IMG/VR virus record: IMGVR_UViG_3300030372_002914
Coordinates: 865-64,864 of that record
Source: a virus
Lineage: Duplodnaviria; Caudoviricetes
Reading direction: 5' to 3' (one strand)
DNA: 64,000 nucleotides
In this document: in pieces, positions 3 to 64,000 of the stretch
Layout of the letters: every line of letters starts with the position of its first letter
Position numbering within the stretch: position 1 is the first letter of the stretch
The notes under the pieces: model-generated
What the model was told of the DNA's origin: nothing
Databases searched by the model: none
What the model saw: only the letters and a program-made list of their open reading frames with translations
Translations under genes and position numbers: made by a program

Positions 3-431
3 CAATGGGTACAGGGTTTTTATGTAGATCAAAACTGGTATGATGTTAGTAGCGGTGATTCTATATTAATTGCTACATCAAATGATGAATTTTACAACTG
101 GCATTTTGGAGATGCTGTAGCAAGGTTTAATGCACAAGAATTAGATAAGCTAGGAATGCAGAAAGAGCTTAGCGCTGTTATAGGTTTAGCTTATTATAAA
201 TATACACCAACATTATGGATACACGCATGGTATAATTGTTTACCTTACCATCGTGGTTTAGATGACTACTCATATGATTATGAAGGTAGTACTATAGAAT
301 GGGATGCTGGTTTAGTATTTGGAACTAAAATAACAAAAAACCTTGGTTTATTCGTGGAAGGAACCCACATGAAGTATTGGGGTAAAAAAATATACGAAGT
401 AAAATTTGGGTTTAACTATTTAATATTTTAA
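3..431 (+). CDS. C-terminal part of a putative outer-membrane beta-barrel protein (5' truncated by window edge)
   Basis: Frame is open from base 3 (QWVQGFYVDQNWYD...) through the listed 156..431 ORF; amphipathic aromatic-rich strands; ends EVKFGFNYLIF, resembling a BAM beta-signal with terminal Phe. Confidence 0.55.
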   Translation, partial: QWVQGFYVDQNWYDVSSGDSILIATSNDEFYNWHFGDAVARFNAQELDKLGMQKELSAVIGLAYYKYTPTLWIHAWYNCLPYHRGLDDYSYDYEGSTIEWDAGLVFGTKITKNLGLFVEGTHMKYWGKKIYEVKFGFNYLIF

Positions 432-434
432 GAT

Positions 435-818
435 ATGGCATTTAAAATGAAAGGTTTTTCTGCTTTTACCAAAAAAACAGATAAAGATTATGAACCACAA
501 ACAAAGGCTGGTGGCCGTGAGTATGAAGATAAGGTAAGAAGATCAGATTTAGACGAAGAAGGGAAAAAGATATTTGACAGTAAGGGATATGAACCACAAA
601 CTCAAACTAGAGGTTATAAAGGTAGTGAACATACTGATTCTACACCTCAAACTGAAATGCAAAAAATGCCTTTATATAGATTAGAGGGAGAATTGGACGG
701 AATTATGGATAATGAATATATGGAGGCTAAAGAGAGGGGTGATAAAAGTGAGATAGCAAGGTATGAATCTCAAATGAATAAACTTAAAAAAGAAATAGAA
801 AGAAGAAAAAATAAATAA
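435..818 (+). CDS. Small charged protein with MAFKMKGFSAFTK leader (putative virion internal/cargo protein)
   Basis: N-terminal 13 aa identical to 822..1091; internal repeat K(D/G)YEPQT twice. Confidence 0.75.
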   Translation: MAFKMKGFSAFTKKTDKDYEPQTKAGGREYEDKVRRSDLDEEGKKIFDSKGYEPQTQTRGYKGSEHTDSTPQTEMQKMPLYRLEGELDGIMDNEYMEAKERGDKSEIARYESQMNKLKKEIERRKNK

Positions 819-1106: not shown

Positions 1107-1865
1107 ATGAAAAAATACATTATAATATTATTTGCGCTTATAAGCTCGTTCGCTTATTCGCAATACGACTTTCAACAATTATGCTTAGACTGCGCTGAAC
1201 AAAACGGTTTTTATTGTGGAGATGATCCAGCAAACTGGACGCAATATTCTCCAAATGGATGTGTACCTAATGGTTTTCAAGGTTTATTTTATTTAAATGA
1301 TGGATGGGAAGACTGTGTAGATGGATCTGATGAAGCTGAAGCTGTACCAACAGTAGCAACTGATTGTGCTCCTCCACCACCTCCACCATGTGATACGGTT
1401 TACGTAGACATACCAGTTTATATCTATGAAACTTTATTCCAAACAGATACTATATACCAAACGGAGTATATCACTCAAATACTTTTTGATACTATAGTAG
1501 AAATTGAATATGAAACTATATTTGAAGAAATATTTGTTACAGATACATTGTGGATGGACGGGGCTTTAGATACTATGTACATTGATATTATTGAGTATGT
1601 AGATGTATTTGTTTATGATACAATAGTAGAAACAGAGACTGTTTATATAGAGTTTTTTACTACTGATACTATTGTGGAATATGTAGAGATTATAAATACA
1701 GAATATTTAGATTGTGATACGGGCTTACCTTGTACTTCAAATATACCTGAACTTATAAATAAATATAATAAAAATAGTGTAATCTATAATATTAATGGGC
1801 AGGCAATAAAAGAAAAAGAAGGATTGTACATTGAAGATGGTAAAATCAAATACAAACTAAAGTAA
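1107..1865 (+). CDS. Secreted protein: signal peptide + LDL-receptor class A-like domain + poly-Pro + DT(I/V) repeats + T9SS-type C-terminal sorting domain
   Basis: MKKYIIILFALISSFAYS/Q signal; FYC...CVP...NDGWEDCVDGSDE (LDLa-like); C-terminus TSNIPEL...IYNINGQAI...GLYIEDGKIKYKLK resembles a type A T9SS CTD. Confidence 0.7.
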   Translation: MKKYIIILFALISSFAYSQYDFQQLCLDCAEQNGFYCGDDPANWTQYSPNGCVPNGFQGLFYLNDGWEDCVDGSDEAEAVPTVATDCAPPPPPPCDTVYVDIPVYIYETLFQTDTIYQTEYITQILFDTIVEIEYETIFEEIFVTDTLWMDGALDTMYIDIIEYVDVFVYDTIVETETVYIEFFTTDTIVEYVEIINTEYLDCDTGLPCTSNIPELINKYNKNSVIYNINGQAIKEKEGLYIEDGKIKYKLK

Positions 1866-1866
1866 A

Positions 1867-2211
1867 ATGGCAAAAGAAATTTCAGAAGAAAGTAAGTTTC
1901 AAATTAGTATTAAAACATTAATAACTATAGTAGTTGCTGTTGCGACTGTTATATCTGCTTATTTTGGCTTAATGAGTAGTATTAATTCTAAGTTTGTAGA
2001 ACTTGAGGATAAAGTAGAAGAAGCTTTAGAAAAACCTAAACCAGGTACTGGTACTTATACTATAGATATGGGTGATCCAGCCGCTAGTAATTCTTGGCCA
2101 CCAACCCGTATGGAGTTTAATATGAAAGATCAAATGGCTCGTAATCAAATTGATGCGTTAGTAAAGGAGATAGATGAAATGAAAGAGGAAATAAAAGATT
2201 TAAGAAAATGA
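1867..2211 (+). CDS. Single-pass membrane protein with coiled-coil C-terminus
   Basis: Hydrophobic segment TLITIVVAVATVISAYFGLM; heptad-rich C-terminus. Confidence 0.6.
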   Translation: MAKEISEESKFQISIKTLITIVVAVATVISAYFGLMSSINSKFVELEDKVEEALEKPKPGTGTYTIDMGDPAASNSWPPTRMEFNMKDQMARNQIDALVKEIDEMKEEIKDLRK

Positions 2212-2609
2212 TTAAAAGAATAGACGTATCTAATTACCTTTATATACTAATGATGGTGTTCATGTTCTTATGTGGAACAGCATTTAGTCAAGATTTTGTT
2301 ACTGCTGATAACTTTAAAGATAAAATAGCTAAAGATATAACAATCATTGAATTCTGGGCTGAATGGAATCAAATGAATCAGTTTAATGAATTAATTAAAT
2401 TAAAAGGATGTAATGTATATCGAATCGATATTATGTCTTATATGGACATCCAAATGAATTATAACGTTACAGCTATACCAACTGTAATCATATTTGATAA
2501 TGGCGTTGAAAAAGAAAGATTTAATCCTAATGTAATGTTTAAACTAGACGCTGACAAAAAAACAGTACAACACTCGGTTGATACTATAACACTAAATAAA
2601 TTTCAATAA
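2208..2609 (+). CDS. Exported thioredoxin-fold protein lacking the CxxC motif
   Basis: Hydrophobic N-terminus ending AFS/QD; IIEFWAEWNQMN at the WCxxC position; cis-Pro motif AIPTVIIFDNGVEKERF. Confidence 0.7.
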   Translation: MIKRIDVSNYLYILMMVFMFLCGTAFSQDFVTADNFKDKIAKDITIIEFWAEWNQMNQFNELIKLKGCNVYRIDIMSYMDIQMNYNVTAIPTVIIFDNGVEKERFNPNVMFKLDADKKTVQHSVDTITLNKFQ

Positions 2610-2982: not shown

Positions 2983-3309
2983 ATGGCTTATGTACAAAAG
3001 AATAATCCGATACCTATAACCGGGTGTGGTAGACGTAGGGCGGAGCAAATGGCTAATCCATTTAAAAAAATAAGCAAAAGATCTTTATCTAAAGTATCTA
3101 CTCAATTAAAAAAAGCTAGTAAACTACACGCTGATCAAGCTAGTAAAATAGATAAAGCTATAGATAGTCCTTTAAAAAAAGGTATTAGCGGACCTTGTAA
3201 GTCTGCAGCAAAAAGAAAATTTAAAGTATGGCCAAGCGCTTACGCTTCTGGATGGGGCGTAAGGTGTACTAAAGCTGGTGGCCCAAGTAAATACGGAGGT
3301 AGTAAGTAA
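2983..3309 (+). CDS. Small basic protein of short modules (KRKFKVWPSAYASG module)
   Basis: MAYVQKNNP leader; NPFKK and SPLKK separators; Cys-flanked basic module of a type I recall from marine phages. Confidence 0.65.
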   Translation: MAYVQKNNPIPITGCGRRRAEQMANPFKKISKRSLSKVSTQLKKASKLHADQASKIDKAIDSPLKKGISGPCKSAAKRKFKVWPSAYASGWGVRCTKAGGPSKYGGSK

Positions 3310-4175
3310 TGTTTAAGGGTTTTAATATAGATAGATTTAAAAGAATGAAACCACCTTCTGACAACTCGTTTAATACGATGCAGGAGGTAAAGCAGCTTAA
3401 TAGTATACCTATGAATAAGTCTTCTGTTCAAAAGTACGATAACATAGAAAAAACCTTTGCTGATATAGCTGCTAAAAATAATATAACTAACTACGACTCT
3501 AAACTAGTAGGTGATTTAATTAAAAAATCAGCACCAATAATAACTAAGTTAAAAAAGCATTTTAATAGACCTAGACCTAAAGTAATGGCTAAAAAATTAG
3601 GTATACGTATGGCAGACTATGAAATGAACTCTATGAAAACACCATCATATCCTAGTGGTCATTCAACTCAAGGCGTTTTAATAGGTAAAGTATTAGCAGA
3701 TAAATACCCTAAAGCAGCCAAACAATTTATTAAGGCTGGTAAAAACATTTCTGATAGTAGAAGAATAGCTAAAGCTCACTACAAATCTGATAGTAAAATG
3801 GGTGAAATGCTAGGTAACGAAATGTACAAACATGCAAAAGCCTCACCATTGAAATGTTGGAAAGGTTACGAAAGAGTACCTGGTACAGCTAAAGGCTCTA
3901 AAGGTAGTTGCCGTAAGTCTTCGCCAATGAAAAAACAAAAAGGTGGTGGTACAACTAAAACTTGTTTACCTGCAGCTAAGATACGTGGCATGAGTAAAGA
4001 AAAAAGGCAAGAGCTAGTTAGCTCTAAAAAGGCAGCTGGTGCACAGGGTAAATATAAAAGATCATCTAAAACAAACGTTAAAGGCGCTAGAAAAAAAGGT
4101 GCTACGTTAAGAGACTGGTTTCAAAAAGAAGACTGGAGAAGAGTAGATGATCCTTCTAAAAAATGTGGAGAATAA
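3309..4175 (+). CDS. Soluble PAP2/acid-phosphatase-superfamily domain fused to basic peptide modules
   Basis: All three PAP2 motifs: KxxxxxxRP (KKHFNRPRP), PSGH (SYPSGHS), SRxxxxxHxxxD (SRRIAKAHYKSD); no TM helices; C-terminal CWKGY and LRDWFQKEDW modules after SPLK and SPMKK. Confidence 0.75.
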   Translation: MFKGFNIDRFKRMKPPSDNSFNTMQEVKQLNSIPMNKSSVQKYDNIEKTFADIAAKNNITNYDSKLVGDLIKKSAPIITKLKKHFNRPRPKVMAKKLGIRMADYEMNSMKTPSYPSGHSTQGVLIGKVLADKYPKAAKQFIKAGKNISDSRRIAKAHYKSDSKMGEMLGNEMYKHAKASPLKCWKGYERVPGTAKGSKGSCRKSSPMKKQKGGGTTKTCLPAAKIRGMSKEKRQELVSSKKAAGAQGKYKRSSKTNVKGARKKGATLRDWFQKEDWRRVDDPSKKCGE

Positions 4176-4489
4176 TGGCATATATACAATCAAATAATCC
4201 TTTTAAAAAATCAGCGGAACCAAGACGTACTATAGGTCCTGGTAAAAATTTTAATAAAGCTAGACCAACTGGAACTGGTGCTGCAGCTGGTGGAGGTATG
4301 ACTCAAAAAGGCGTTGATGAATATAAACGTAAAAATCCAGGAAGTAAATTGCAGACCGCTGTTACTACTAAGCCATCTGAATTAAAACCAGGTAGTAAAA
4401 AAGCTAATCGTAGAAAATCATTCTGCGCTAGATCAAGAAGTTGGAAAAGCGAAAGAGGTAAAGCTGCTAGAAGAAGATGGAACTGTTAA
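4175..4489 (+). CDS. Small Arg/Lys-rich protein (NPGSKLQTAVT...RRKSFCAR...RWNC family)
   Basis: ATG at 4175 overlaps the previous stop; MAYIQSNNPFKK leader; highly basic module. Confidence 0.7.
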   Translation: MAYIQSNNPFKKSAEPRRTIGPGKNFNKARPTGTGAAAGGGMTQKGVDEYKRKNPGSKLQTAVTTKPSELKPGSKKANRRKSFCARSRSWKSERGKAARRRWNC

Positions 4490-22510: not shown

Positions 22511-24076
22511 ATGGAATACAACTTACCAAGCGAATTGGTTAAGAACTTAGACTTCGGTGGTGAAGCTAAAGATAGAGTTATCACCGGAGTTAATAAGTTA
22601 GCCCAAGCTGTTAAATCAACATTAGGCGCATCAGGTAAATGCGTTATTTACGAAGATGGCAGAGGCAAGCCGGTCATTACAAAAGATGGAGTAACCGTTG
22701 CAGAAAGCGTAGTCTTATATGACCCGGTCGAAAACATGGGCGCGACCTTAATCAAAGAAGCTGCTAGAAATACAGTAAAAGATGCTGGTGATGGCACAAC
22801 AACTGCTACAGTACTAGCTGAAGCAATAATCAAGCAAGTAGACACTGCGATCGCAGATGGTCTTACAATCAGAGAAATTAAAGATGGAGTAACAGAAACA
22901 CTAGATAGTGTCATTGGCTATTTAAATGATATAGCTATTGATGTAGAAGGTGATATGCTTAAATCTGTTAGTGCTATATCTTGTAACAACGATAAAGAGC
23001 TAGGAGCTATTATAGCTGAAGCTTACGATAAAGTTGGTAAAAATGGTGTAGTACTTATGGAAGAAAGCGAATCTGAAGATACATATGTTGACGTAGTTGA
23101 TGGTGTTAAAGTTGATTGTAACTTAACATCACCGCATTTTGTCACCAATACTGAAAAACAAACATGTGAATTAGACAAACCACTAGTTTTTATATGTTCA
23201 TCTGAAATACCTAATGTTCGTAAGATTCAGTCAATATTAGAATATGTTATTAAAAATAACAGAGCTTTATTAATTGTAGCACCAGTAGCACAACAAGTTA
23301 AAGCCGCTTTACTAATGAATAAAGTAAAAGGCACTATAAAGGTTAACGTTATTGATTTACCAGGCTTTGGTCCTACTAAAAAAGATGCCACTGAAGATCT
23401 AGCTATACTTACTGGAGCTACTGTTCTAAATGAAGAACTTGGTGATGATTTAGATCTTATGAAACCAGAACATTTAGGTGAAGCTGAGTTTGCTATAACT
23501 GATGATAAAAATACTGTACTAACTCTAGAAGGTATGACTGAAGGTATCGAAGATAGAATAGATGAGTTAAACAAACATTTAACCGAGGAATCAAACGGTT
23601 TTATTAAAAAGAAACTTGAAGATAGATTAGCTATGTTATCAGGTAGTGTAGGTATAATACGTGTTGGCGCTAATTCTAAAGTTGAACTAAAAGAAAAGAA
23701 AGATAGAGTTGAAGATGCTATATATGCAACTAAAGCCGCATTACAAGAAGGTATAGTACCAGGTGGTGGTATTGCATTACTAAATGCATCTCAAAAAATT
23801 TCGACCAGCAAGGCTGGTGAAGTATTACTTAATGCTTTATCTTCTCCATTTGAAGTAATTATGGACAATGCTGGATTAATGATGAATCCTAGTAATCTAA
23901 AAGAAGGTTATGGTTGTAACGTAATAGATGGAACGTTTCCTAATATGGTACGTGAAGGAATTATAGATCCTGTACTTGTAACTAAGTCTGCACTTAAAAA
24001 TGCTGTAAGTGTAGCATTAACTATTATGTCAGCAGATTGTGTAATCTCAAATATAAGAGTAAATGAAGGCGGTTAA
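22511..24076 (+). CDS. groEL: Phage chaperonin GroEL (Cpn60)
   Basis: [49 protein letters not shown]; lacks the GGM tail. Confidence 0.97.
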
Positions 24077-37813: not shown

Positions 37814-40800
37814 ATGCCGGAAATTAAAAGAACATTTACAGCCGGTAAGATGAACAAAGATCTCGATGAGAGATTAGTTCGTAACGGCGAATATAGAGAC
37901 GCTTTAAACATACAAGTTAGAACCACTAGTGGAGAAGACGGCATTGGTGATGCTGGTGTAGTTCAAAACATTAAAGGTAATAGTTATAAAGGTGTTGCAC
38001 ATATAACTAAGACCTATACGCTTCCCAATGAAGATGATGTTTTATTATACACTAAATTCGTAGGTAGCGTTGCTGATGAAAAAAATGATAAGGCTTATTT
38101 TTTCGCGGCATCACCTTTACCAGAAGGTGGATTTGATTCTATAACGCATACATATATAATGGGTGTATATTCTGGGAATCCAGATTTTTGGAATTCAGGT
38201 GATGGATTAAGACATTGGATAGATAGTATAATTGAATTAGACGCTACAACAGAAACTAGTACACCTATTTTTGTTGATAAATACGGAGTTACTGGTAGAT
38301 TGCATGATGTAATAGGTGCGGACAATGTAACCGCTACATCTATAGGTTTAGAATTAAAAGTATTAGACGGATCGCTGTATAGAATCGGCATGATTGCTTA
38401 TTTCTATAACAATGACGGTGAACATTTATTTGTTAATTCTCAAGGCAATGGGGTTAAAATAATAGATATACAAGAAAATAAATTAATTTTAGAATCAGAG
38501 CAAGACTTAAATTTACAAACTGAATTAACTAACGGCAACATAGATTATAGAAGTGCGTTTAAATTTATATATCCAGAAAGGGTTTTAGAATTTGATTATA
38601 ACTCTTTGATACCAAACATTAATATAATAGACAATCTGTTATTTTATACAGATGGTAAAAATGAGCCAAAAAAAATAAATATTGACAGATCTAAAGCTGG
38701 TACTATTTTTTCATTAATAGAAAGCTATATAGACCCTGACTCACAAGAAGATACTATAATAGAATTTCCAAATATCCAAACAGCTGAATCTTACCTTGAA
38801 AGACCTAAACACACAAAGTTATTTGTTAATAATACTATTATAGATGCTGATCAAGAACTTGTAGAAGTAAAAGAATTAGAATGGGACGTAAAAACATCTG
38901 ATATAAAAAGAGAGCATATTACAGTTATAAGAAAAGCTCCTTTATCACCACCAACATTAGAAATTAGTAACACAGATAGAGAAGGGAGTGTTAGTTTTCC
39001 TTTATCTTATTCTGGTTTTATACAAAATGGAGAACCTATATTTGGGGAAACTAGAGTTATACAAGCTAATATTCTTTTGAATCAAGATGTTAGATTAAAT
39101 GATGTATTAAGATTTACTAGCGATGAAAATAATAATAATCCAGTCACAATTGTAACTAGGGTAATTGGTATTAACGGGCCTAACGCTATAGAAGTTCAAT
39201 TAACTTTCATTGACCCTGATTTAATATCTCAAGAACCATCATTATGGAACGTAGAGGTAGAGCAAGAAAAACCTTTATTTGAAACTAAATTCGGTAGAAT
39301 AGGTTATAGGTATCAATATGAAGACAATGAATATTCTACTTTTTCTCCTTGGTCTGAATTAGCTTTTTTACCAGGGGGTTTTTCATATACACCTAGCAAA
39401 GGCTATAATGAAGGTATGTCTAATAACACTAGAAAACTAGTAATTAGAGATTTTATACCAGATAATTCTATAAGACCTATTGATGTTAAGAAAATTGATA
39501 TACTTTGGAAAACAACAGATGACCAAAATGTATATGTTATAAAAAGTATAACTAGAGGTAGAGATGTAGAGTGGGATGTTCTTGGCCAAGAAACTAAAGG
39601 TGAGCTAACTATGACATCAGAAATGATACATAGAGTGTTATCTAATGAACAATTATTAAGATCTTGGGATAATGTACCTAAAACAGCTTCAACTCAAGAG
39701 ATAACAGGTAGTAGACTTGTTTTTGGTAATTACACACAAGGATATGATATAAATAAAGTAGTAAATTTAGAACAATCATTATTATCAGATACTGTAATTC
39801 CTCTTGAGCCTAAAAAATCTATTAAATCTATTAGGAATTATAAATTTGGAATGGTATTTGGGGATAGATATGGTAGAGAAACGCCAGTGTTAGCAAGAGG
39901 TTATAATATAGGTGTTAATTCTGGCGTAACTGGAGATACTAGTATTGATAAAAGTTTAGCTAGTTTTTCTAATAAATTTAGAGTAAAACAAAATTGGGAG
40001 ACAGAACCAGAGGATTGGATGGAGTACGTAAAGTATTACGTAAAAGAAACTTCTAATGAGTATTATAATTTAGTAATGGACAGATGGTATATTGCTGACG
40101 ATGATAACTCAACAATATGGATGTCTTTTCCATCTGTCGATAGAAATAAAGTTGATGAAGAAACTTATTTGTTGTTAAAAAATGAACATGGATCACAAAA
40201 CGCTGTCGTAGACAGGGCTAGATATAAAATATTAGCAATAGAAAGTGAGGCTCCAGATTTTATTAAAACTGATTATAGAAAATTTGAAAAAGTTTTAATA
40301 GACCCTGAGAATGTTTTTAGTGACACAGATACATCAAGTGGTATTCCAGATAAATTAATTGGGAGTAAAACAATAAGGACAGACACTACTAACTGGGAGC
40401 TCGCTGAAGGTGGCTTGACTCCTGAAATACAAGCTGATCAGTTTAAAGGTACTATTAAAGTAAGAATAGTTGGAGAAGTTGCTGATAACCCAAGTGTAAC
40501 TTTACACACTCGTTGGATAACTGTTGCTAGAGTAAAAAGCGGACCAGGTAATGATAGAGGTTGTGATATGAAAGAAGAGTTCACTACTGAGGAAGCTAAC
40601 ATGTACATAAGGTTAGGTAACATATTTACAATTGACGCTGCGGCAAACGTAGCAGTAAATTATTATATGGAATTTATGGATGAGGTTGTAGAAAATAAAC
40701 CAGAATTTGACGGTAGATTTTTTGTAAAAATAGAAAAAGATCCAATACTAACTGAATACGTAGCGTCTTCTACTTCTGGTACTCAATGGCAACCGGAAAT

Positions 40801-43800
40801 GAGCACTAAAGTAGGTTATATAACCAACAAACCTGAAAATGACGCTTTTATATTACAAACTGGAATGGATGGTTTTCCAAGCGGATTTAATATTGCAAAT
40901 TATACTGAAGATTCAATTGACAATTATTATAGCGCTGTCCAAGCTGTTAACCTTGCTGGAGGAAATAATGATTGGGGTCTTACTGAAACTGGTTCTGGTG
41001 TGGTACCATCTTTTATTTGGGACGGTGGCATTAATGGTAATAGTAGAACTCAAGATTTTTGGAACTGGCACAATACACAAGTTTCAGAAGGAAATGCCCC
41101 TAAAATATTTATTGATGCTATACCTGCTTTCCGTGGGTGGAATAAAGTAGAGTCAGTATCGCTTGGAATTGGTTTTGGTGGAGTTGAAAATGATATACTC
41201 GTAGATCTCCCAAGCCGCTTTGATTCTAGAAATCCTTACGTAGCAGAACATCCAGACTACGAAGTTGACGCTCCTGGTAATTATGATCCGGGAGATCCTC
41301 CTAGATTACCAGTAAGTTTATGGTTTAACGACCAGTTTTATGCAGGAGAAGATTGGATAAATGGGTTTAGTTATATTGGTTCGAACTCTTACGTTTATGG
41401 CGGTGTTCCTTATGGACCGGGAAACAACCCGGAGCAACAAACAAAAAACTATTTACCGCCTGGGTTCTCACAAGGCTCAGGTAGTTCAGGTACTTACAAT
41501 CAATTTTGTTTTTCTGTAGTTGGGGAGACAAGTGGTTTTGGTACCGCCACTAGTAACGAACAAGAGTTCAAATCAAGAATGCAAAGTGTTGGTCAATGTT
41601 TTAGATTTCAAGAGGATGCAGATCAAACTGTTTACAAGATAATAGCAAATACACAACTTGTTAACCCAAATGCACCGGAAAATCAAGCTGCTATATTTAA
41701 TGGAGAAATATCTATAGATAGTATAAATTATCACACAGATAATTATCCCGATGATTTAGTTGCTAAAAGACACTCAATAGTTGTTAGATTTGTGAGATTA
41801 GATACTTTTGGTGGAGAAATGTATGATAATGGCTCGCCAGTTGGTATAGATTATAGTGAGTTTGATCCTAGAGGTTATGTTGGAAGTGATGGTATAGGTA
41901 ATTTTACAATAGAGTTTGTAACGGAATTAAATGAAAGTGAATTAATCGAAGACTCTATAAGAACTGATAAAGCTTGTTGGGAAACCGAACCTAAAAAAGA
42001 CATGGATATAGATATATACTATGAGGCTAGCGGGGCTATACCAATGAACTTAAAAGAAAATAACATACAAATTTATGCTCAACCTTCTAATTCCTTATTA
42101 TTAGAAAAAGCTAAATTAGCTAGTACAGTAGATATTCTTTCTAGAAAGATTGGTCCAGATCAAACTGTAGAAGTAAATATAAATAGTGGTTTAGATTATG
42201 GTTTTAGTAGTATATTTGCTTACGTGTGTAAAACTATAGGTAATAGAGGTATTATGATAGCGCATAATAATGATAATGCGTTCGCTGCTAATAATTTGAT
42301 TACTTTTCCAAGTATTAATGATGTAAATGAAATATATACAAGAAATTACCCAGCTATAGATGACTTTATAACATTCACACATCCAAATGGTTTAATAACT
42401 AGATCAAAAATAATAGATCATTTAGCGGTTAACTCGATAGCTCCTTTTGATAAAACAAACAATATAAGTCCATCATATAGAGACACAATTGATAGTGGTG
42501 CGACATTTAACGTCATAAACGATGGGCAACCTAGAGGTTATTTCTTTGCTCAAACTCCATCACCGCTTCAAGTTGGAATGGAATTAAGGGGAACTTTTGT
42601 TAAACCTGGGAGTTTTATATGTTTTCAAGTTGATTTTGGGTCATTTGGAACGCTTTTTGCTATTAATCAACATTTTAAAGAAGAAGTTGAGGGAATAGCA
42701 TACAACGAAGAATCATTAGTTTTAACAGGTATAGAAACAACAGGTTTTTTTGAAATAGATCCTGAGGTATGGAAGTATGAAGTTGATTTAAACTGGTTTA
42801 ATTGTTATTCATTTGGTAATGGTGTGGAATCAGATAGAATAAGAGATGATTTTAACGCGCCAACTATTGATAATGGTATAAAAGCTTCATCTACGTTTTT
42901 AGATTATAAAGAAGAAACTATAGGTAGTGGATTAATACACTCTTCTGAGCTATATAACGCTATATCTAGTGTTAATGGTTTAAATGAGTTCAGTATGGGA
43001 CAAAAAATAACTAAAAATTTAAATCCAATTTATGGCTCTATACAGGCTTTAAAAACAAGAGACACAAACTTGGTTACCTTCTGTGAAGATAAAGTTTTAA
43101 AAGTATTAGCAAATAAAGACGCTGTATTTAATGCTGATGGTAATCCACAATTAACAGCTACAAATAGAGTTCTTGGGCAAACAATACCATTCGCCGGGGA
43201 TTATGGTATATCTAAAAATCCAGAATCATTAGCTGTTGATCAATATAGAATGTATTTTACAGATAAACAAAGAGGTGCTGTATTAAGATTATCTGGAGAT
43301 GGTTTAACACCTATATCCAATGTTGGCATGAAAACATATTTTAGAGAAAATTTACGAGACTGTAGTTCTATAGTAGGTACTTTTGATGCTGAAAACGGTG
43401 AATACAATGCTACTCTTAATTTTAATGAGGAATCTCAAAAAAATTCTACAACTGTAAGTTTTAATGAAGGGGGTAAAGCTTGGGTTAGTTTTAAATCTTT
43501 TCTACCTAATTGTGGTGTTTCTGTAAGTGGTAAATATTTTACAACACCTACTATAGAACAGTCTTTAAATGCTCAAAACTATATAGCCGCGAGTAGTAAA
43601 ATTTGGCTGCATAATGCTAATGAAACGAGAAATAATTTTTATACAATTGATGAATTTAAATCAACTATAGAAGTCATATTTAATGATATGCCTAGTGTAG
43701 TAAAATCTTTTAAAGCTGTAAACTACGAAGGTACACAGAGTAGAGTTTTAGAAAACACAAGTACGTCGTATGGTGGTGATGGGGAATATTATAATATAGA

Positions 43801-44845
43801 AGGAAAAAATGGTTGGTATGTAAATGCGTTTAATACAAATACTCAATCTGGTAAAGTAAAAGAGTTTTTAGAAAAAGAAGGTAAATGGTTTAATTTTATA
43901 ACGGGTACCGTTGACACATCTGGTGATATAAGCGATTATGTAAATTCTAGTGAGTTTAGTGTACAGGGAATAGGTTTTCCACTATTAATAGGTGAAGGAT
44001 TTGAACAATCGCAGGCTATATTAGAAATAGAAGTACCCCAACCTACTATTGATCCTGTAACAAATGAAGCTGACGAAAACACTGCTGAAATTGAACTTGT
44101 TGAAAATACGGTTAATTATCAAATGCCTCAAGACGATGGTAGTACTATTCCTATGTGGGACTGGGATAGTTATAATATAACAGGAGGCAATTGGAGTGGA
44201 TTTGGTGATCTTTATCCTGAATTAGCTGAAATTTACAACTCTCAGTCTTTAAGATATTATCATGGAATTACAATTGAATTTATTTATAATGGTATAGCAC
44301 CGTTTACAGATGAAGATGGTTTAGAATATTTATATGTTACTATTATGAAAAATGGAGCCGCTTTACCAACATTCGAATTTCTTGACACAACTACGTATGC
44401 TGAATCAGGTTTTAATAATCTAGAATTGAGGGCTTATAGAGTTGAAGGAAGTAATATTTATGAATATGAATTTAAAAATGCTATGAATTCTAGCATGTTT
44501 TCTAATGCGGCAGGTTCAGGCGCTTTTGAAACCAGTGTATTTATTGGTGACACATTCCAATTGATAGTTGAGGATACAAGCAGCAACAAAGGGACAAAAA
44601 CTATAACTTTAACTGGTGATTATATTAACCCTGACCCGGCAGATGTGCCATTAGTAGATTGGAAACCTGGATTTCATGATGGAGATGGTCAAATTACTAC
44701 AGAAGGTACAATAGGTACAGGTGAAAACGATATAAACGATTCATACACTGGACCTTTAGGTGTACAAGTGAACTTAGATTGGAAATTTGGGCCAAATGGA
44801 GATCAAGAAATTACAGATCAAGAACCAACTGATATACTAGATTAA
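37814..44845 (+). CDS. Tail nozzle/muzzle (stabilisation) protein, enlarged by insertions
   Basis: F..GKMNKDLDERL..NGEYRDALN start; NGVESDRIRDDFNAP...; beta-propeller-type C-terminal part GDYGISKNPES...FTDK.RGAVLRLS.DGLTPIS. Confidence 0.75.
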   Translation: MPEIKRTFTAGKMNKDLDERLVRNGEYRDALNIQVRTTSGEDGIGDAGVVQNIKGNSYKGVAHITKTYTLPNEDDVLLYTKFVGSVADEKNDKAYFFAASPLPEGGFDSITHTYIMGVYSGNPDFWNSGDGLRHWIDSIIELDATTETSTPIFVDKYGVTGRLHDVIGADNVTATSIGLELKVLDGSLYRIGMIAYFYNNDGEHLFVNSQGNGVKIIDIQENKLILESEQDLNLQTELTNGNIDYRSAFKFIYPERVLEFDYNSLIPNINIIDNLLFYTDGKNEPKKINIDRSKAGTIFSLIESYIDPDSQEDTIIEFPNIQTAESYLERPKHTKLFVNNTIIDADQELVEVKELEWDVKTSDIKREHITVIRKAPLSPPTLEISNTDREGSVSFPLSYSGFIQNGEPIFGETRVIQANILLNQDVRLNDVLRFTSDENNNNPVTIVTRVIGINGPNAIEVQLTFIDPDLISQEPSLWNVEVEQEKPLFETKFGRIGYRYQYEDNEYSTFSPWSELAFLPGGFSYTPSKGYNEGMSNNTRKLVIRDFIPDNSIRPIDVKKIDILWKTTDDQNVYVIKSITRGRDVEWDVLGQETKGELTMTSEMIHRVLSNEQLLRSWDNVPKTASTQEITGSRLVFGNYTQGYDINKVVNLEQSLLSDTVIPLEPKKSIKSIRNYKFGMVFGDRYGRETPVLARGYNIGVNSGVTGDTSIDKSLASFSNKFRVKQNWETEPEDWMEYVKYYVKETSNEYYNLVMDRWYIADDDNSTIWMSFPSVDRNKVDEETYLLLKNEHGSQNAVVDRARYKILAIESEAPDFIKTDYRKFEKVLIDPENVFSDTDTSSGIPDKLIGSKTIRTDTTNWELAEGGLTPEIQADQFKGTIKVRIVGEVADNPSVTLHTRWITVARVKSGPGNDRGCDMKEEFTTEEANMYIRLGNIFTIDAAANVAVNYYMEFMDEVVENKPEFDGRFFVKIEKDPILTEYVASSTSGTQWQPEMSTKVGYITNKPENDAFILQTGMDGFPSGFNIANYTEDSIDNYYSAVQAVNLAGGNNDWGLTETGSGVVPSFIWDGGINGNSRTQDFWNWHNTQVSEGNAPKIFIDAIPAFRGWNKVESVSLGIGFGGVENDILVDLPSRFDSRNPYVAEHPDYEVDAPGNYDPGDPPRLPVSLWFNDQFYAGEDWINGFSYIGSNSYVYGGVPYGPGNNPEQQTKNYLPPGFSQGSGSSGTYNQFCFSVVGETSGFGTATSNEQEFKSRMQSVGQCFRFQEDADQTVYKIIANTQLVNPNAPENQAAIFNGEISIDSINYHTDNYPDDLVAKRHSIVVRFVRLDTFGGEMYDNGSPVGIDYSEFDPRGYVGSDGIGNFTIEFVTELNESELIEDSIRTDKACWETEPKKDMDIDIYYEASGAIPMNLKENNIQIYAQPSNSLLLEKAKLASTVDILSRKIGPDQTVEVNINSGLDYGFSSIFAYVCKTIGNRGIMIAHNNDNAFAANNLITFPSINDVNEIYTRNYPAIDDFITFTHPNGLITRSKIIDHLAVNSIAPFDKTNNISPSYRDTIDSGATFNVINDGQPRGYFFAQTPSPLQVGMELRGTFVKPGSFICFQVDFGSFGTLFAINQHFKEEVEGIAYNEESLVLTGIETTGFFEIDPEVWKYEVDLNWFNCYSFGNGVESDRIRDDFNAPTIDNGIKASSTFLDYKEETIGSGLIHSSELYNAISSVNGLNEFSMGQKITKNLNPIYGSIQALKTRDTNLVTFCEDKVLKVLANKDAVFNADGNPQLTATNRVLGQTIPFAGDYGISKNPESLAVDQYRMYFTDKQRGAVLRLSGDGLTPISNVGMKTYFRENLRDCSSIVGTFDAENGEYNATLNFNEESQKNSTTVSFNEGGKAWVSFKSFLPNCGVSVSGKYFTTPTIEQSLNAQNYIAASSKIWLHNANETRNNFYTIDEFKSTIEVIFNDMPSVVKSFKAVNYEGTQSRVLENTSTSYGGDGEYYNIEGKNGWYVNAFNTNTQSGKVKEFLEKEGKWFNFITGTVDTSGDISDYVNSSEFSVQGIGFPLLIGEGFEQSQAILEIEVPQPTIDPVTNEADENTAEIELVENTVNYQMPQDDGSTIPMWDWDSYNITGGNWSGFGDLYPELAEIYNSQSLRYYHGITIEFIYNGIAPFTDEDGLEYLYVTIMKNGAALPTFEFLDTTTYAESGFNNLELRAYRVEGSNIYEYEFKNAMNSSMFSNAAGSGAFETSVFIGDTFQLIVEDTSSNKGTKTITLTGDYINPDPADVPLVDWKPGFHDGDGQITTEGTIGTGENDINDSYTGPLGVQVNLDWKFGPNGDQEITDQEPTDILD

Positions 44846-63649: not shown

Positions 63650-64000
63650 ATGAATTTAGAAGTAATTAGATTTTCTAGTGGTACTGATAGTACTAACGGA
63701 ATGCTGTTAGAAGCAATAGAACAAGGTAACGATATAGATGGGATGTTCTTTCAAAAAAAATTTTTAGCATATACATTAGAAGATGAAAAAAGAGATACAA
63801 AAGTTCTTGGAGAAACGAGAATCCCAGACGGTAATTATAAACTGGGTCTTAGAAAAGTTGGAGGATATCACGCAAGGTACACGAAAAGATTTCCTCACAT
63901 ACATATTGGTATGTTGCATGTTCTTGATGTTCCTGGCTTTGAGTATATACTTATCCATTGTGGAAACACCGATGAGCATACAGCAGGTTGTTTGTTGGTA
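63650..64000 (+). CDS. DUF5675-like (L,D-transpeptidase-fold) protein, candidate endolysin; 3' truncated
   Basis: T.G.L...F..YTLED...ETRIP.G.Y...L.DVPGFEYILIHCGNT.EHTAGCLLV (IHxGN...GC motif). Confidence 0.75.
   Translation, partial: MNLEVIRFSSGTDSTNGMLLEAIEQGNDIDGMFFQKKFLAYTLEDEKRDTKVLGETRIPDGNYKLGLRKVGGYHARYTKRFPHIHIGMLHVLDVPGFEYILIHCGNTDEHTAGCLLV

What the first reader, a model, noticed from the sequence alone, without database searches (positions are those of the whole stretch)
1107..1865. Phage T9SS substrate carrying a eukaryote-like LDL-receptor class A domain
After a clean Sec signal the protein has F-x-C...C-V-P...N-D-G-x-x-D-C-x-D-G-S-D-E, the LDLa Ca2+-binding signature with one Cys replaced by Asn. 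A Pro6 hinge, about six DT(I/V)-x repeats and a C-terminus matching type A T9SS sorting domains follow. LDLa modules are mainly eukaryotic and bind basic ligands through Ca-coordinated acidic residues. A phage using the host T9SS to display or secrete such a module would be highly unusual; it could bind incoming phage fibres, algal surfaces or grazer receptors (inference).
Basis: partly seen in the sequence, partly recalled or inferred. Interest (0 to 1): 0.8.

Follow-up and report, generated by a model that had tools for sequence, protein, structure and literature searches.

The report
Phage surface protein built from host parts
A widespread group of marine phages of Flavobacteria-type bacteria carries a small exported protein assembled from pieces of the host's own surface proteins (a calcium-cage head, a sugar-site-rich acidic stalk and a miniature secretion tail), so the phage probably uses the host's own export machine to plant this protein on the infected cell, for a purpose still unknown.

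Summary
ORF 1107-1865 encodes a 252-aa protein with five parts:
- a Bacteroidota-type signal peptide with Gln at +1;
- a Cys-rich head whose family profile hits only LDL-receptor class A repeats in the PDB, with all acidic Ca2+-cage residues kept and the C4-C6 disulfide lost as a pair;
- a Pro6 hinge;
- an acidic stalk with seven D-T-(I/V/L/M) triplets, which match the Bacteroidota O-glycosylation sequon;
- a 41-50-aa C-terminal tail.

The tail fails the Pfam and TIGRFAM type A T9SS models. It does keep their motifs B, D and E, with the spacing of the published "short" CTDs. A tail-only HMM picked out bona fide Por_Secre_tail domains in 22 of its 29 best hits across the phylum.

The head is not a eukaryotic import. 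Head, stalk and tail all occur in surface proteins of streamlined marine Flavobacteriales MAGs (GC 31-32%, SprA present), which are the likely hosts.

The gene sits in a conserved four-gene envelope cassette: a 12-strand outer-membrane barrel, this gene, a membrane-anchored coiled-coil protein and a Cys-less thioredoxin. The cassette often lies beside the lysin.

T9SS export, glycosylation and function are all inferred. The scan found this family before on other DNA.

The parts
1107..1865 (+). Whole ORF, 252 aa: exported mosaic protein (head, hinge, stalk, tail)
   Evidence: There are 1442 near-length homologues in marine metagenomes. 158 of 165 family members keep 9 cysteines.
1107..1160 (+). 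Sec/SPI signal peptide, residues 1-18; predicted cut A-Y-S|Q19 (Bacteroidota Q-rule)
   Evidence: Read from the sequence. 173 of 176 family members have a signal peptide with Gln near the predicted cut. The Q-rule is described in PMC5837995 (listed; the rule itself is from my own knowledge of that paper's abstract).
1182..1367 (+). Cys-rich head, residues 26-87: LDLa-derived Ca2+-cage module with a 14-residue C2-C3 loop and no C4-C6 disulfide
   Evidence: The family profile hits only LDLa repeats in the PDB. Homologous modules in bacterial proteins pass the PF00057 cut-off (26-44 bits). C4/C6 covariation is shown.
1290..1334 (+). Ca2+-cage signature, residues 62-76 (Y-L-N-D-G-W-E-D-C-V-D-G-S-D-E)
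   Evidence: PF00057 scores 15.1 bits at residues 65-77. The motif is kept throughout the family.
1371..1388 (+). Pro6 hinge, residues 89-94 (close relatives only)
   Evidence: It is absent in the 55-58%-identical relatives P0121 and P0122.
1389..1712 (+). Acidic stalk, residues 95-202: seven D-T-(I/V/L/M) triplets, no basic residue, bracketed by Cys95 and Cys203
   Evidence: AF2 pLDDT is below 35 here. Stalk length varies from 14 to 138 aa among tail-bearing proteins.
1713..1733 (+). Invariant C-D-T-G-L-P-C loop, residues 203-209, always 48-50 aa from the C-terminus
1734..1862 (+). Short T9SS-CTD-like tail, residues 210-252: candidate cleavage site S211|N212-I213, helix 213-223, motif B (Y227...G231), motif D (G239-x-Y-I242), motif E (K248)
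   Evidence: Compared with PMC11969387.
3..431 (+). C-terminal 142 aa of the phage outer-membrane barrel (full gene L007:240-1295, 351 aa, first gene of the genome)
   Evidence: AF2 gives pLDDT 67.5, pTM 0.65 and 12 long strands. Best structural matches: Tsx Z 15.4, KdgM 13.4, autotransporter barrels 12-13. It lies upstream of the cargo gene in 77 of 77 IMG/VR loci.
1867..2211 (+). 114-aa protein with one N-terminal membrane helix and a coiled-coil-like periplasmic part; starts 1 nt after the cargo gene's stop
   Evidence: sequence inspection. A homologue is present in 68 of 72 loci. The pairwise match to a distant relative gives E 3e-6.
2208..2609 (+). Exported thioredoxin-fold protein without a CxxC motif (signal peptide ends A-F-S|Q)
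   Evidence: PF00085 scores 32.4 bits. Present in 67 of 72 loci.
63650..64000 (+). DUF5675 protein (candidate C82-like peptidase lysin) at the genome's right end, next to the barrel across the terminal repeat
   Evidence: PF18925 at E 8.5e-21. The lysin proposal is in bioRxiv 10.64898/2026.04.11.717860. DUF5675 or Peptidase_M15_3 lies within 5 kb in 49 of 80 loci.

Best explanation
The gene encodes a phage copy of a host-type cell-surface protein, reduced to three borrowed modules.

Proposed pathway:
1. During infection the host Sec system exports it and signal peptidase I cuts before Gln19. (Signal shown by sequence; export inferred.)
2. In the periplasm the Cys-rich head folds into an LDLa-like Ca2+ cage held by two of the three canonical disulfides.
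3. The host's general O-glycosylation system decorates the seven D-T-(I/V/L/M) sites of the acidic stalk. (Sequon match shown; glycosylation inferred.)
4. The last roughly 41-50 residues act as a miniature type A T9SS signal. The motif B loop and the two final strands (motifs D and E) dock on PorV. SprA passes the protein across the outer membrane. PorU probably cuts near S211|N212 and links the new C-terminus to a surface glycolipid. (Inferred by analogy with the Prevotella short CTDs.)

The outcome would be a Ca2+-loaded acidic binding head on a glycosylated stalk on, or released from, the infected cell.

It acts together with three co-inherited phage proteins: a 12-strand outer-membrane barrel, an inner-membrane coiled-coil protein and a redox-dead thioredoxin-fold protein, which may be a folding helper for the 9-Cys cargo. 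The most likely purpose is to alter the infected cell's surface late in infection, by masking or competing with the host surface proteins it imitates. This last step is the weakest inference.
For: Head:
- The profile of 26 head sequences hits only LDLa repeats in the PDB (LRP2 3e-35; two-repeat VLDLR constructs about 1e-7; single repeat 2knx 4e-5).
- Homologous modules inside six of the ten large bacterial proteins scanned are called Ldl_recept_a by Pfam, four of them above the cut-off (26-44 bits).
- Cys at the N64 position co-occurs with a Cys 2-7 residues after D-E in 20 of 21 cases. N/G/A/D/V at that position co-occurs with no such Cys in 215 of 215 cases. This is what loss of the LDLa C4-C6 bridge predicts.

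Stalk:
- D-T is followed by A/I/L/V/M/T in 938 of 947 cases.
- Acidic residues outnumber basic ones 3581 to 43.
- Length is variable.
- The sequon is published in PMC8550257 (abstract) and PMC12871550.

Tail:
- It always lies at the extreme C-terminus of signal-peptide proteins.
- Passengers are typical surface domains: Laminin_G_3, trypsin, SprB repeats, DUF285, LRR, thyroglobulin-1.
- Invariant residues fall on motifs B, D and E, with 3-4 residues between B and D. This matches the experimentally cleaved short CTDs of P. intermedia.
- A 45-position tail HMM run on 400 Bacteroidota genomes placed 22 of its 29 best non-self hits on the motif B strand 28-55 aa before a stop codon. Ten of these were scanned and nine pass the PF18962 cut-off.
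- AF2 models the tail at pLDDT 74-83 as a helix plus short strands.

Host:
- Tail-bearing proteins occur in 4 of 151 relatives of a Flavobacteriales MAG. All four are 1.0-1.5 Mb and all encode SprA; the three loci measured have GC 31-32%.
- One of these MAGs has at least 36 canonical CTDs. Another has the head module at 69% identity.
- The terminase's 87 hits in the GenBank phage set are 86 phages of Flavobacteriaceae and one uncultured Caudoviricetes record.
Against: - The protein fails every curated model: no PF18962, TIGR04183 or DUF6383 hit at E<=10, and PF00057 only 15 bits.
- An unbiased profile-profile comparison with six canonical CTDs gave only 10% probability (P 0.003). The 95% value used CTDs pre-selected by the tail HMM, so it is inflated.
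- AF2 confidence is low overall (mean pLDDT 50). The head reaches only 52-70 and the stalk is unmodelled. Foldseek found nothing.
- The stalk uses Thr almost exclusively (938 D-T-sequon triplets against 3 D-S), whereas published glycoproteomes slightly prefer Ser. The repeat may therefore be structural rather than, or as well as, a glycan acceptor.
- The strict pairing with a phage-specific barrel, and the frequent neighbouring lysin, fit a lysis or private-anchor role as well.
- No expression, export or binding data exist.
Confidence: 0.6

Rival explanations
1. The cassette is part of the phage's lysis machinery for a Bacteroidota envelope. The membrane-anchored coiled-coil protein acts like an i-spanin or holin. 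The barrel and this protein supply the outer-membrane or surface partner that breaks the outer membrane after the lysin has cut the wall.
For: - The cassette lies at the end of the long + strand late block and, across the terminal repeat, next to a DUF5675 lysin candidate.
- In 55-58%-identical relatives a Peptidase_M15_3 lysin follows the thioredoxin gene directly.
- A lysin-type gene lies within 5 kb in 49 of 80 loci.
- The 114-aa neighbour has the i-spanin layout: an N-terminal membrane helix and two helical segments with a Pro/Gly linker (by inspection).
- The two genes abut here (1 nt apart) and overlap in the distant relatives L008-L010 and L013.
Against: - This protein has no lipobox.
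- It carries a cargo-type secretion tail that would take it outside the cell, away from a periplasmic partner.
- Host proteins with the same stalk and tail are ordinary surface proteins with no lysis context.
- No known spanin uses a barrel or a Ca-cage head.
- 31 of 80 loci show no lysin within 5 kb.
Confidence: 0.15
2. The tail does not engage the host T9SS. It docks on the phage's own 12-strand barrel, which exports or anchors the protein, as a private two-partner or autotransporter-like pair.
For: - The barrel lies upstream in 77 of 77 loci, and within 100 nt in 49 of them.
- The barrel was not found in four host-like MAGs or in GenBank phages.
- Its best structural matches include polypeptide-exporting 12-strand barrels: FapF, and the NalP, EstA and AIDA autotransporter domains.
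- Type B T9SS cargo is known to pair with adjacent PorP-like barrels (my own knowledge of the F. johnsoniae literature; not checked here).
Against: - The same tail serves many cellular proteins that have no barrel gene nearby, so it works with general host machinery.
- Its motif B is nearly identical to that of canonical PorV-binding CTDs.
- The top barrel match is Tsx, a nucleoside channel, and Z-scores among 12-strand barrels are close together, so the fold does not indicate a function.
Confidence: 0.12
3. It is a virion component, a decoration or fibre-associated protein, rather than a protein delivered to the host envelope.
For: It lies on the same strand as, and in circular continuity with, the structural gene block. 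Its neighbours with MAFKMK-type leaders may be packaged proteins (a first-reader note that I did not test).
Against: - A cleavable signal peptide with the Q-rule is kept in 173 of 176 members.
- It has nine cysteines, periplasm-type sequons and a secretion tail shared with cellular surface proteins.
- It matches no PHROG of known function.
Confidence: 0.03

Closest known systems
'Short' T9SS C-terminal domains of Prevotella intermedia (Ye et al. 2025, PMC11969387)
   Same: - 40-55 residues long, at the extreme C-terminus of signal-peptide proteins.
- Motif B with conserved Tyr and Gly followed by a basic residue.
- Only 1-6 residues to motif D (G-x-Y-I), then motif E with a conserved Lys/Arg.
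- Predicted small sheet, sometimes with a helix.
- Passengers include DUF285, LRR and proteases.
- Coexists with long CTDs in the same genome.
   Different: - Found in marine Flavobacteriales and their phages, not in Prevotella. [quoted passage not shown]
- Preceded by an invariant C-D-T-G-L-P-C loop and an acidic D-T repeat stalk.
- About 15 residues, including a helix, lie between the candidate cleavage site and motif B, against 6-11 in Prevotella.
- No experimental cleavage or glycosylation data.
Type A T9SS sorting domain (Pfam PF18962 Por_Secre_tail / TIGR04183)
   Same: - Motif B segment (I/L)-Y-N-(L/I)-x-G-Q-x-(I/V), nearly identical to that of many canonical CTDs.
- G-x-Y motif D and the basic motif E.
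- Same position and same host phylum.
   Different: About half the length. It lacks strands 1-2 and the roughly 20-30 residues between motifs B and D, and gets no score from either curated model.
LDL-receptor class A (complement-type) repeat, Pfam PF00057
   Same: - C3-(V/I)-P...aromatic-x-[C4]-D-G-x-x-D-C5-x-D-G-S-D-E, with all four acidic Ca2+ ligands and the aromatic residue kept.
- C1-C3 and C2-C5 cysteines are in place.
- Bacterial relatives with the full six cysteines pass the Pfam cut-off.
   Different: - C4 is Asn64 and C6 is absent, so one disulfide is lost.
- The C2-C3 loop is 14 residues instead of 4-6, and this phage has 5 extra residues between C3 and the cage.
- It is a single copy at the mature N-terminus.
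- It derives from bacterial surface proteins and is carried by a phage.
General protein O-glycosylation of Bacteroidota at D-(S/T)-(A/I/L/V/M/T) (PMC8550257, PMC12871550)
   Same: Seven exact sequons in an exported protein. D-T is followed by an allowed residue in 99% of stalk occurrences.
   Different: The sequons are packed into a repeat with Thr only and an extreme acidic and hydrophobic composition. That density and bias are not described for known glycoproteins. Glycosylation is not shown.
Two-component spanins (Rz/Rz1 type) of phages of Gram-negative bacteria
   Same: Gene pair, abutting here and overlapping in distant relatives, near the lysin. One partner has an N-terminal membrane helix and a coiled-coil periplasmic domain.
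   Different: The other partner (this protein) is not a lipoprotein, is four times larger and carries a secretion tail. An outer-membrane barrel and a thioredoxin-fold protein are also conserved in the set.

Membership tests
LDL-receptor class A repeat (PF00057) | Score at or above the Pfam gathering cut-off (24.1 bits) | tested here: not met
   There is no hit in hmmscan at E<=10. The six-frame genome search gives 15.1 bits, E 0.0027, at residues 65-77. Homologous modules in bacterial proteins do pass: 26.1, 30.4, 32.0 and 44.2 bits.
LDL-receptor class A repeat (PF00057) | Six cysteines forming C1-C3, C2-C5 and C4-C6 | tested here: not met
   C4 is Asn64 and no Cys follows D75-E76 within 10 residues. 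Four of the six positions are kept. The loss is paired across the family (215 of 215 against 20 of 21).
LDL-receptor class A repeat (PF00057) | Acidic Ca2+ cage: aromatic-x-C4-D-x-x-x-D-C5-x-D-x-S-D-E | tested here: met
   Y62, D65, D69, D72, S74, D75 and E76 are present and near-invariant in 165 family members.
LDL-receptor class A repeat (PF00057) | Detectable sequence relationship to solved LDLa repeats | tested here: met
   The family profile against PDB sequences hits only LDLa-containing chains. Single or double repeats score E 4e-5 to 1e-7. The alignment covers C3 to D-E only.
LDL-receptor class A repeat (PF00057) | LDLa fold in a structure model | tested here: inconclusive
   AF2 pLDDT is 52-70 over the head. 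Foldseek against the PDB gave no match at E<=0.001.
Type A T9SS CTD (PF18962 / TIGR04183) | Score at or above the curated cut-off of either model | tested here: not met
   There is no hit at E<=10 on the protein, on 15 tail-bearing fragments, or on the genome.
Type A T9SS CTD (PF18962 / TIGR04183) | A seven-strand beta-sandwich of about 70-80 residues | tested here: not met
   Only 43-50 residues follow the invariant Cys loop. AF2 shows a helix and about three short strands.
Type A T9SS CTD (PF18962 / TIGR04183) | Conserved motifs B, D and E at the extreme C-terminus of a signal-peptide protein | tested here: met
   Y227 99%, G231 100%, G239 97%, Y241 and I242 100%, K248 95%. 22 of 29 best tail-HMM hits lie on motif B of real CTDs. 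Signal peptides are present in 173 of 176 phage-type members and 44 of 59 others; the remaining 15 start mid-domain and look N-terminally truncated.
Short T9SS CTD (Ye et al. 2025) | 40-55 residues from cleavage site to C-terminus, with 1-6 residues between motifs B and D | tested here: met
   41 residues run from the candidate S211|N212 site to the end. Residues 236-238 separate the basic residue after motif B from G239.
Short T9SS CTD (Ye et al. 2025) | A single three-stranded sheet that docks on PorV | tested here: inconclusive
   AF2 at pLDDT 74-83 gives helix 213-223, strand fragments at 227-233 and strands 239-243 and 246-250. No complex model with PorV could be made with these tools.
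Short T9SS CTD (Ye et al. 2025) | T9SS-dependent export, PorU cleavage and C-terminal glycan attachment | not testable with these tools
   This needs secretion assays and mass spectrometry.
Short T9SS CTD (Ye et al. 2025) | The organism that makes it has a T9SS | tested here: met
   SprA_N scores E 1e-162 to 1e-171 in all four tail-bearing MAGs. One of them has 36 canonical CTDs over the cut-off. That these MAGs represent the phage's host is an inference from shared modules, GC content and terminase relatives.
Bacteroidota O-glycoprotein | D-(S/T)-(A/I/L/V/M/T) sequon in a non-cytoplasmic protein | tested here: met
   There are seven sequons against 1.1 expected, and a signal peptide is present.
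Bacteroidota O-glycoprotein | Glycan actually attached | not testable with these tools
   This needs glycoproteomics.
Two-component spanin (o-spanin role for this ORF) | Outer-membrane lipoprotein signal (lipobox Cys) | tested here: not met
   The signal peptide ends A-Y-S|Q with no Cys. The same holds in relatives.

The most novel reading that the evidence does not exclude
The four co-inherited genes (12-strand outer-membrane barrel, short-CTD cargo with Ca-cage head and glycan stalk, inner-membrane coiled-coil protein, redox-dead periplasmic thioredoxin) may form a phage-built trans-envelope device specific to T9SS-bearing Bacteroidota. It could be a new kind of outer-membrane-breaching (spanin-equivalent) lysis system. 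Alternatively it could be a phage-private docking station that captures the host T9SS/PorV pathway, so that a phage protein replaces host adhesins on the cell surface.
Probability: 0.18. Interest if true: 0.85.

Novelty: new variant of a known kind. Interest (0 to 1): 0.58.

Why it matters
Three points would follow if the reading holds.
- It would be a case of a lytic phage sending its own protein through the Bacteroidota-specific type IX secretion pathway. My literature searches found no described case.
- It would extend miniature "short" secretion tails from one oral Prevotella species to abundant marine Flavobacteriales. Curated HMMs miss these tails, so T9SS cargo in those bacteria is under-counted.
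- The family is very common in ocean metagenomes (1442 near-length homologues, including Tara Oceans). It is always linked to a phage-specific outer-membrane barrel. Whatever it does (surface masking, exclusion, lysis) is likely a regular part of how these phages treat an ecologically important host group.

It also gives a compact natural scaffold (tail of about 45 aa) to test the minimal T9SS signal.

Tried and rejected
Searches that found nothing:
- Pfam, NCBIfam and PHROGs on the protein. The only hit was phrog_24164 at E 0.054, of unknown function.
- GenBank phage collection by DNA and by protein, for the cargo and for the barrel: no match.
- PF18962, TIGR04183 and PF19910 (DUF6383) on the genome at E<=10.
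- Pfam on 15 tail fragments: only unrelated hits. Thymidylate synthase and glycosyltransferase appear on what look like chimeric or overlapping fragments.
- Literature searches for phage-encoded T9SS cargo or LDLa in phages.

Structure attempts:
- AF2 of the whole protein gave mean pLDDT 50 and left the stalk unmodelled. Foldseek with that model found nothing at E<=0.001.
- The protein-language-model atlas, queried with the tail, put Por_Secre_tail clusters first, but at scores of 0.77-0.79. The tool says these are leads only.

Calls that failed and were redone:
- The alignment-based locus searches with A1 and A4 failed for lack of conserved stretches. They were redone with A2 and A6.
- Two cellular tail proteins sat on contigs under 2 kb and gave no context.

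Ideas rejected:
- PorV/FadL-like or PorP/SprF-like identity of the barrel. Pfam gave no hit. Structural matches are 12-strand barrels, and the one FadL homologue listed scores only Z 7.2. This does not exclude a distant relationship.
- A pentapeptide-repeat or RTX-like reading of the stalk. I considered this by eye and dropped it, because there is no Pfam hit and the register does not fit.
- A eukaryotic origin of the head. The closest relatives are bacterial surface proteins of the likely host lineage.

Caveat on one result:
- The hhalign result (95%) is not independent, because its CTD set was chosen by the tail HMM.
Full report
WHAT IS THERE

The window is nearly the whole of a 64,864-bp IMG/VR virus record with direct terminal repeats; the window's GC is 32%. 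ORF 1107-1865 (+) encodes 252 aa.
- a signal peptide ending A-Y-S with Gln19 at +1;
- F35-x-C37, C52-V-P, and N64-D-G-W-E-D-C70-V-D-G-S-D-E76;
- Pro89-94;
- seven D-T-(I/V/L/M) triplets between residues 96 and 189;
- a Lys-rich, strand-prone C-terminus.

The gene is real. It has 1442 near-length homologues in marine metagenomes, including Tara Oceans. Nine cysteines are conserved in 158 of 165 family members.

THE PROTEIN IS A MOSAIC OF TWO MOBILE MODULES

An exhaustive search of 1.84 billion representatives showed two independent modules.
- Residues about 25-88 recur inside many unrelated, often very large proteins.
- Residues about 150-251 recur only at the C-terminal end of other proteins.

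HEAD

The protein itself gets no Pfam hit. In a six-frame search it scores only 15.1 bits with PF00057, on residues 65-77, against a cut-off of 24.1.

The evidence for an LDLa origin comes from the family:
- The homologous segment in six of the ten large bacterial proteins scanned is called Ldl_recept_a by Pfam. Four pass the cut-off (26-44 bits). Seven of the ten carry Por_Secre_tail and six carry Dockerin_1.
- A profile of 26 head sequences, searched against all PDB sequences, hits nothing but LDLa repeats (LRP2 3e-35; two-repeat VLDLR constructs about 1e-7; single repeat 2knx 4e-5). The aligned part runs from C3 to the D-E of the Ca2+ cage.
- The aromatic residue and all four acidic ligands are kept throughout the phage family.
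- The missing cysteine is one half of a pair. In the 236 modules counted, Cys at the N64 position goes with a Cys shortly after D-E in 20 of 21 cases. N/G/A/D/V goes with none in 215 of 215. That is the signature of losing the LDLa C4-C6 bridge. These counts are not phylogenetically independent.

Differences from the textbook repeat:
- a 14-residue C2-C3 loop carrying the conserved N-W-T-x-Y-S-P-N-G;
- five extra residues before the cage in this phage.

I therefore call the head LDLa-derived. It is not a member in good standing.

STALK

Between Cys95 and Cys203 there are 27 acidic residues and no basic ones.

Across 157 tail-bearing proteins:
- the stalk is 14-138 aa long;
- acidic residues outnumber basic ones 3581 to 43;
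- D-T is followed by A/I/L/V/M/T in 938 of 947 cases, whereas T after Q, I, N, V or T is followed by other residues.

The phage protein has 7 such triplets against 1.1 expected from shuffles (0 of 5000 shuffles reach 7). D-(S/T)-(A/I/L/V/M/T) is the sequon of the phylum-wide Bacteroidota O-glycosylation system, which acts in the periplasm on exported proteins (PMC8550257; PMC12871550).

The near-exclusive use of Thr (only 3 D-S) is not what published glycoproteomes show. AF2 gives no confident structure here (pLDDT below 35). A structural role for the repeat therefore remains open.

TAIL

- The heptad C-(D/E)-(T/S)-G-L-P-C lies 48-50 residues from the C-terminus in all 157 proteins that have it.
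- The carriers have Bacteroidota-type signal peptides.
- Their passenger domains are typical of surface proteins: Laminin_G_3, trypsin, SprB repeats, DUF285, LRR, thyroglobulin-1.
- Curated CTD models see nothing.
- The invariant positions are Y227, G231 (then Q232, I234 and a basic residue), G239-x-Y241-I242, and K248.

P. intermedia has 48 "short" CTDs of 43-55 aa, five of them with cleavage sites determined by mass spectrometry. These keep exactly these features:
- motif B with conserved Tyr and Gly plus a basic residue;
- 1-6 residues to motif D (G-x-Y followed by Ile);
- motif E with a conserved Lys/Arg;
- a predicted three-stranded sheet, sometimes with a helix;
- a cleavage site with a small residue at +1 and Ile at +2.

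The present tail fits each point. It has S211|N/G212-I/M213 as a candidate cleavage site. AF2 gives pLDDT 74-83 with a helix at 213-223 and strands at 239-243 and 246-250.

As an independent test I built a 45-position HMM from 11 tails (A7) and ran it on 400 genomes sampled across the phylum. Of the 29 best non-self hits, 22 lie on the (I/V)-Y-N-(I/L)-L-G-Q-E-(I/V) strand, 28-55 residues before a stop codon, followed by G-x-Y and a basic end. Ten were scanned and nine pass the PF18962 cut-off; the tenth scores 23.7 bits. CTDs occupy well under 1% of a proteome, so this enrichment is far beyond chance.

Profile-profile comparison with an unselected set of six CTDs was weak (10%, P 0.003, same segment). 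The 95% obtained with the HMM-selected set is inflated by that selection.

My reading is that the tail is a type A CTD pared down to the motif B loop and the last two strands.

ORIGIN AND HOST

- The tail was found in a Flavobacteriales MAG (SP3073) and in 4 of 151 of its relatives. All four are 1.0-1.5 Mb; the three loci measured have GC 31-32%.
- Tail-bearing genes also lie among housekeeping genes on a 128.6-kb and a 1.61-Mb contig.
- All four MAGs encode SprA. One has at least 36 canonical CTDs.
- One MAG also has the head module, 69% identical, directly after the signal peptide of a protein of at least 492 aa next to a housekeeping-type gene (by my reading of its sequence, a phosphoglycerate mutase).
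- The terminase's 87 hits in the GenBank phage set are 86 phages of Flavobacterium, Cellulophaga, Tenacibaculum and Maribacter, plus one uncultured Caudoviricetes record.

So the phage protein is a minimal chimera of host surface-protein parts, and the head is not a eukaryotic import. The host lineage itself is rich in "eukaryote-like" Cys-rich domains: Kazal, Kunitz, thyroglobulin-1, somatomedin B.

NEIGHBOURHOOD

The first gene of the genome (L007:240-1295, 351 aa) ends in an aromatic-rich F-G-F-N-Y-L-I-F.
- AF2 models it as a 12-strand barrel with an insert of about 85 aa (pLDDT 67.5, pTM 0.65).
- The best structural matches are Tsx (Z 15.4), KdgM, NanC, autotransporter barrels and FapF.
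- It has no Pfam or PHROG match.
- It was not found in the four MAGs or in GenBank phages.

In 80 IMG/VR loci with a relative of the cargo at 50-88% identity, the neighbourhood is as follows:
- the barrel lies upstream in 77 of 77 loci with enough sequence, and within 100 nt in 49 of them;
- the 114-aa membrane/coiled-coil protein lies downstream in 68 of 72;
- the Cys-less thioredoxin lies downstream in 67 of 72;
- a lysin-type gene (Peptidase_M15_3 or DUF5675) lies within 5 kb in 49 of 80.

Here the DUF5675 gene (63650-64000) sits at the right genome end, adjacent to the barrel across the terminal repeat. In cells, tail-bearing genes have no such barrel nearby.

HOW IT MOST LIKELY WORKS

Steps, with the basis for each:
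1. Sec export and cleavage before Gln19. The signal is shown by sequence; export is inferred.
2. Disulfide formation and Ca2+ loading of the head. Inferred from conserved residues.
3. O-glycosylation of the stalk. The sequon match is shown; glycosylation is inferred.
4. Recognition of the short tail by PorV/SprA, then cleavage and anchoring by PorU. Inferred by analogy with the Prevotella work.
5. Display or release of a Ca-cage binding head.

The purpose is unknown. Because the protein imitates host surface proteins and is carried by a lytic-type phage in a late-operon position, I favour masking of, or competition with, host surface functions (exclusion, or preventing loss of progeny on debris). 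The lysis-device and private-anchor readings are live rivals.

NOVELTY

Each part belongs to a known kind. What is new is their combination in a phage, the short tail outside Prevotella, and the fixed four-gene cassette. I found no paper describing it. Within this scan the same family was already noted and followed up on other genomes. My results agree with those notes and add three things: the phylum-wide tail-HMM test, the C4/C6 covariation and the synteny counts.

Noticed in passing
window 435-818, 822-1091, 2612-2980 (also 2983-3309, 4163-4489): Several unrelated small basic proteins begin with the same M-A-F-K-M-K-(G/A)-F leader, or with M-A-Y-x-Q-x-N-N-P. Two of them interrupt the barrel-cargo pair, which is directly adjacent in most relatives. 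DUF6321 matches 4163-4489.
   Followed up: no
window 3309-4175: A 288-aa protein with a PAP2-superfamily match just under the cut-off (26.5 against 27.2 bits), followed by basic Lys/Gly-rich modules.
   Followed up: no
L007:240-1295 (window 3-431 is its C-terminal part): In this phage the barrel's signal peptide contains L-I-S-C, a lipobox-like motif, followed by C-C-A-Q. In the 63%-identical relative the signal ends V-G|Q with no Cys. Lipidation, if any, is therefore not conserved.
   Followed up: partly
window 22511-24076; L008 1193-3057, L013 1-1482: The phage encodes a Cpn60/GroEL-type chaperonin. Relatives also carry a Cpn10 gene beside it.
   Followed up: no
window 37814-44845 and 48937-60306: Two giant ORFs of 2343 and 3789 aa lie in the structural block. 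The first matches a virion structural PHROG; the second matches nothing.
   Followed up: no
L022 (128.6-kb bacterial contig), L021 (1.61-Mb contig), proteins P0130, P0166, P0234: The likely host lineage carries many Cys-rich domains usually thought of as eukaryotic: Kazal, Kunitz_BPTI, Thyroglobulin_1, Somatomedin_B and LDLa. They sit on secreted proteins, several of which have T9SS tails.
   Followed up: partly
proteins P0216 and P0143 (metagenome fragments): Two short predicted proteins join a thymidylate-synthase or glycosyltransferase-2 N-terminus to the conserved tail. These are most likely assembly or gene-calling chimeras at a repeated module.
   Followed up: no
window 1389-1712 and relatives (e.g. 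P0157): In some cellular proteins the stalk is an exact 10-residue repeat (D-T-I-Y-V-D-N-F-I-I), while in phages it is degenerate. Cys residues bracket the stalk at both ends. AF2 drew residues 131-172 as one long hairpin at very low confidence. A disulfide-closed hairpin is possible.
   Followed up: no
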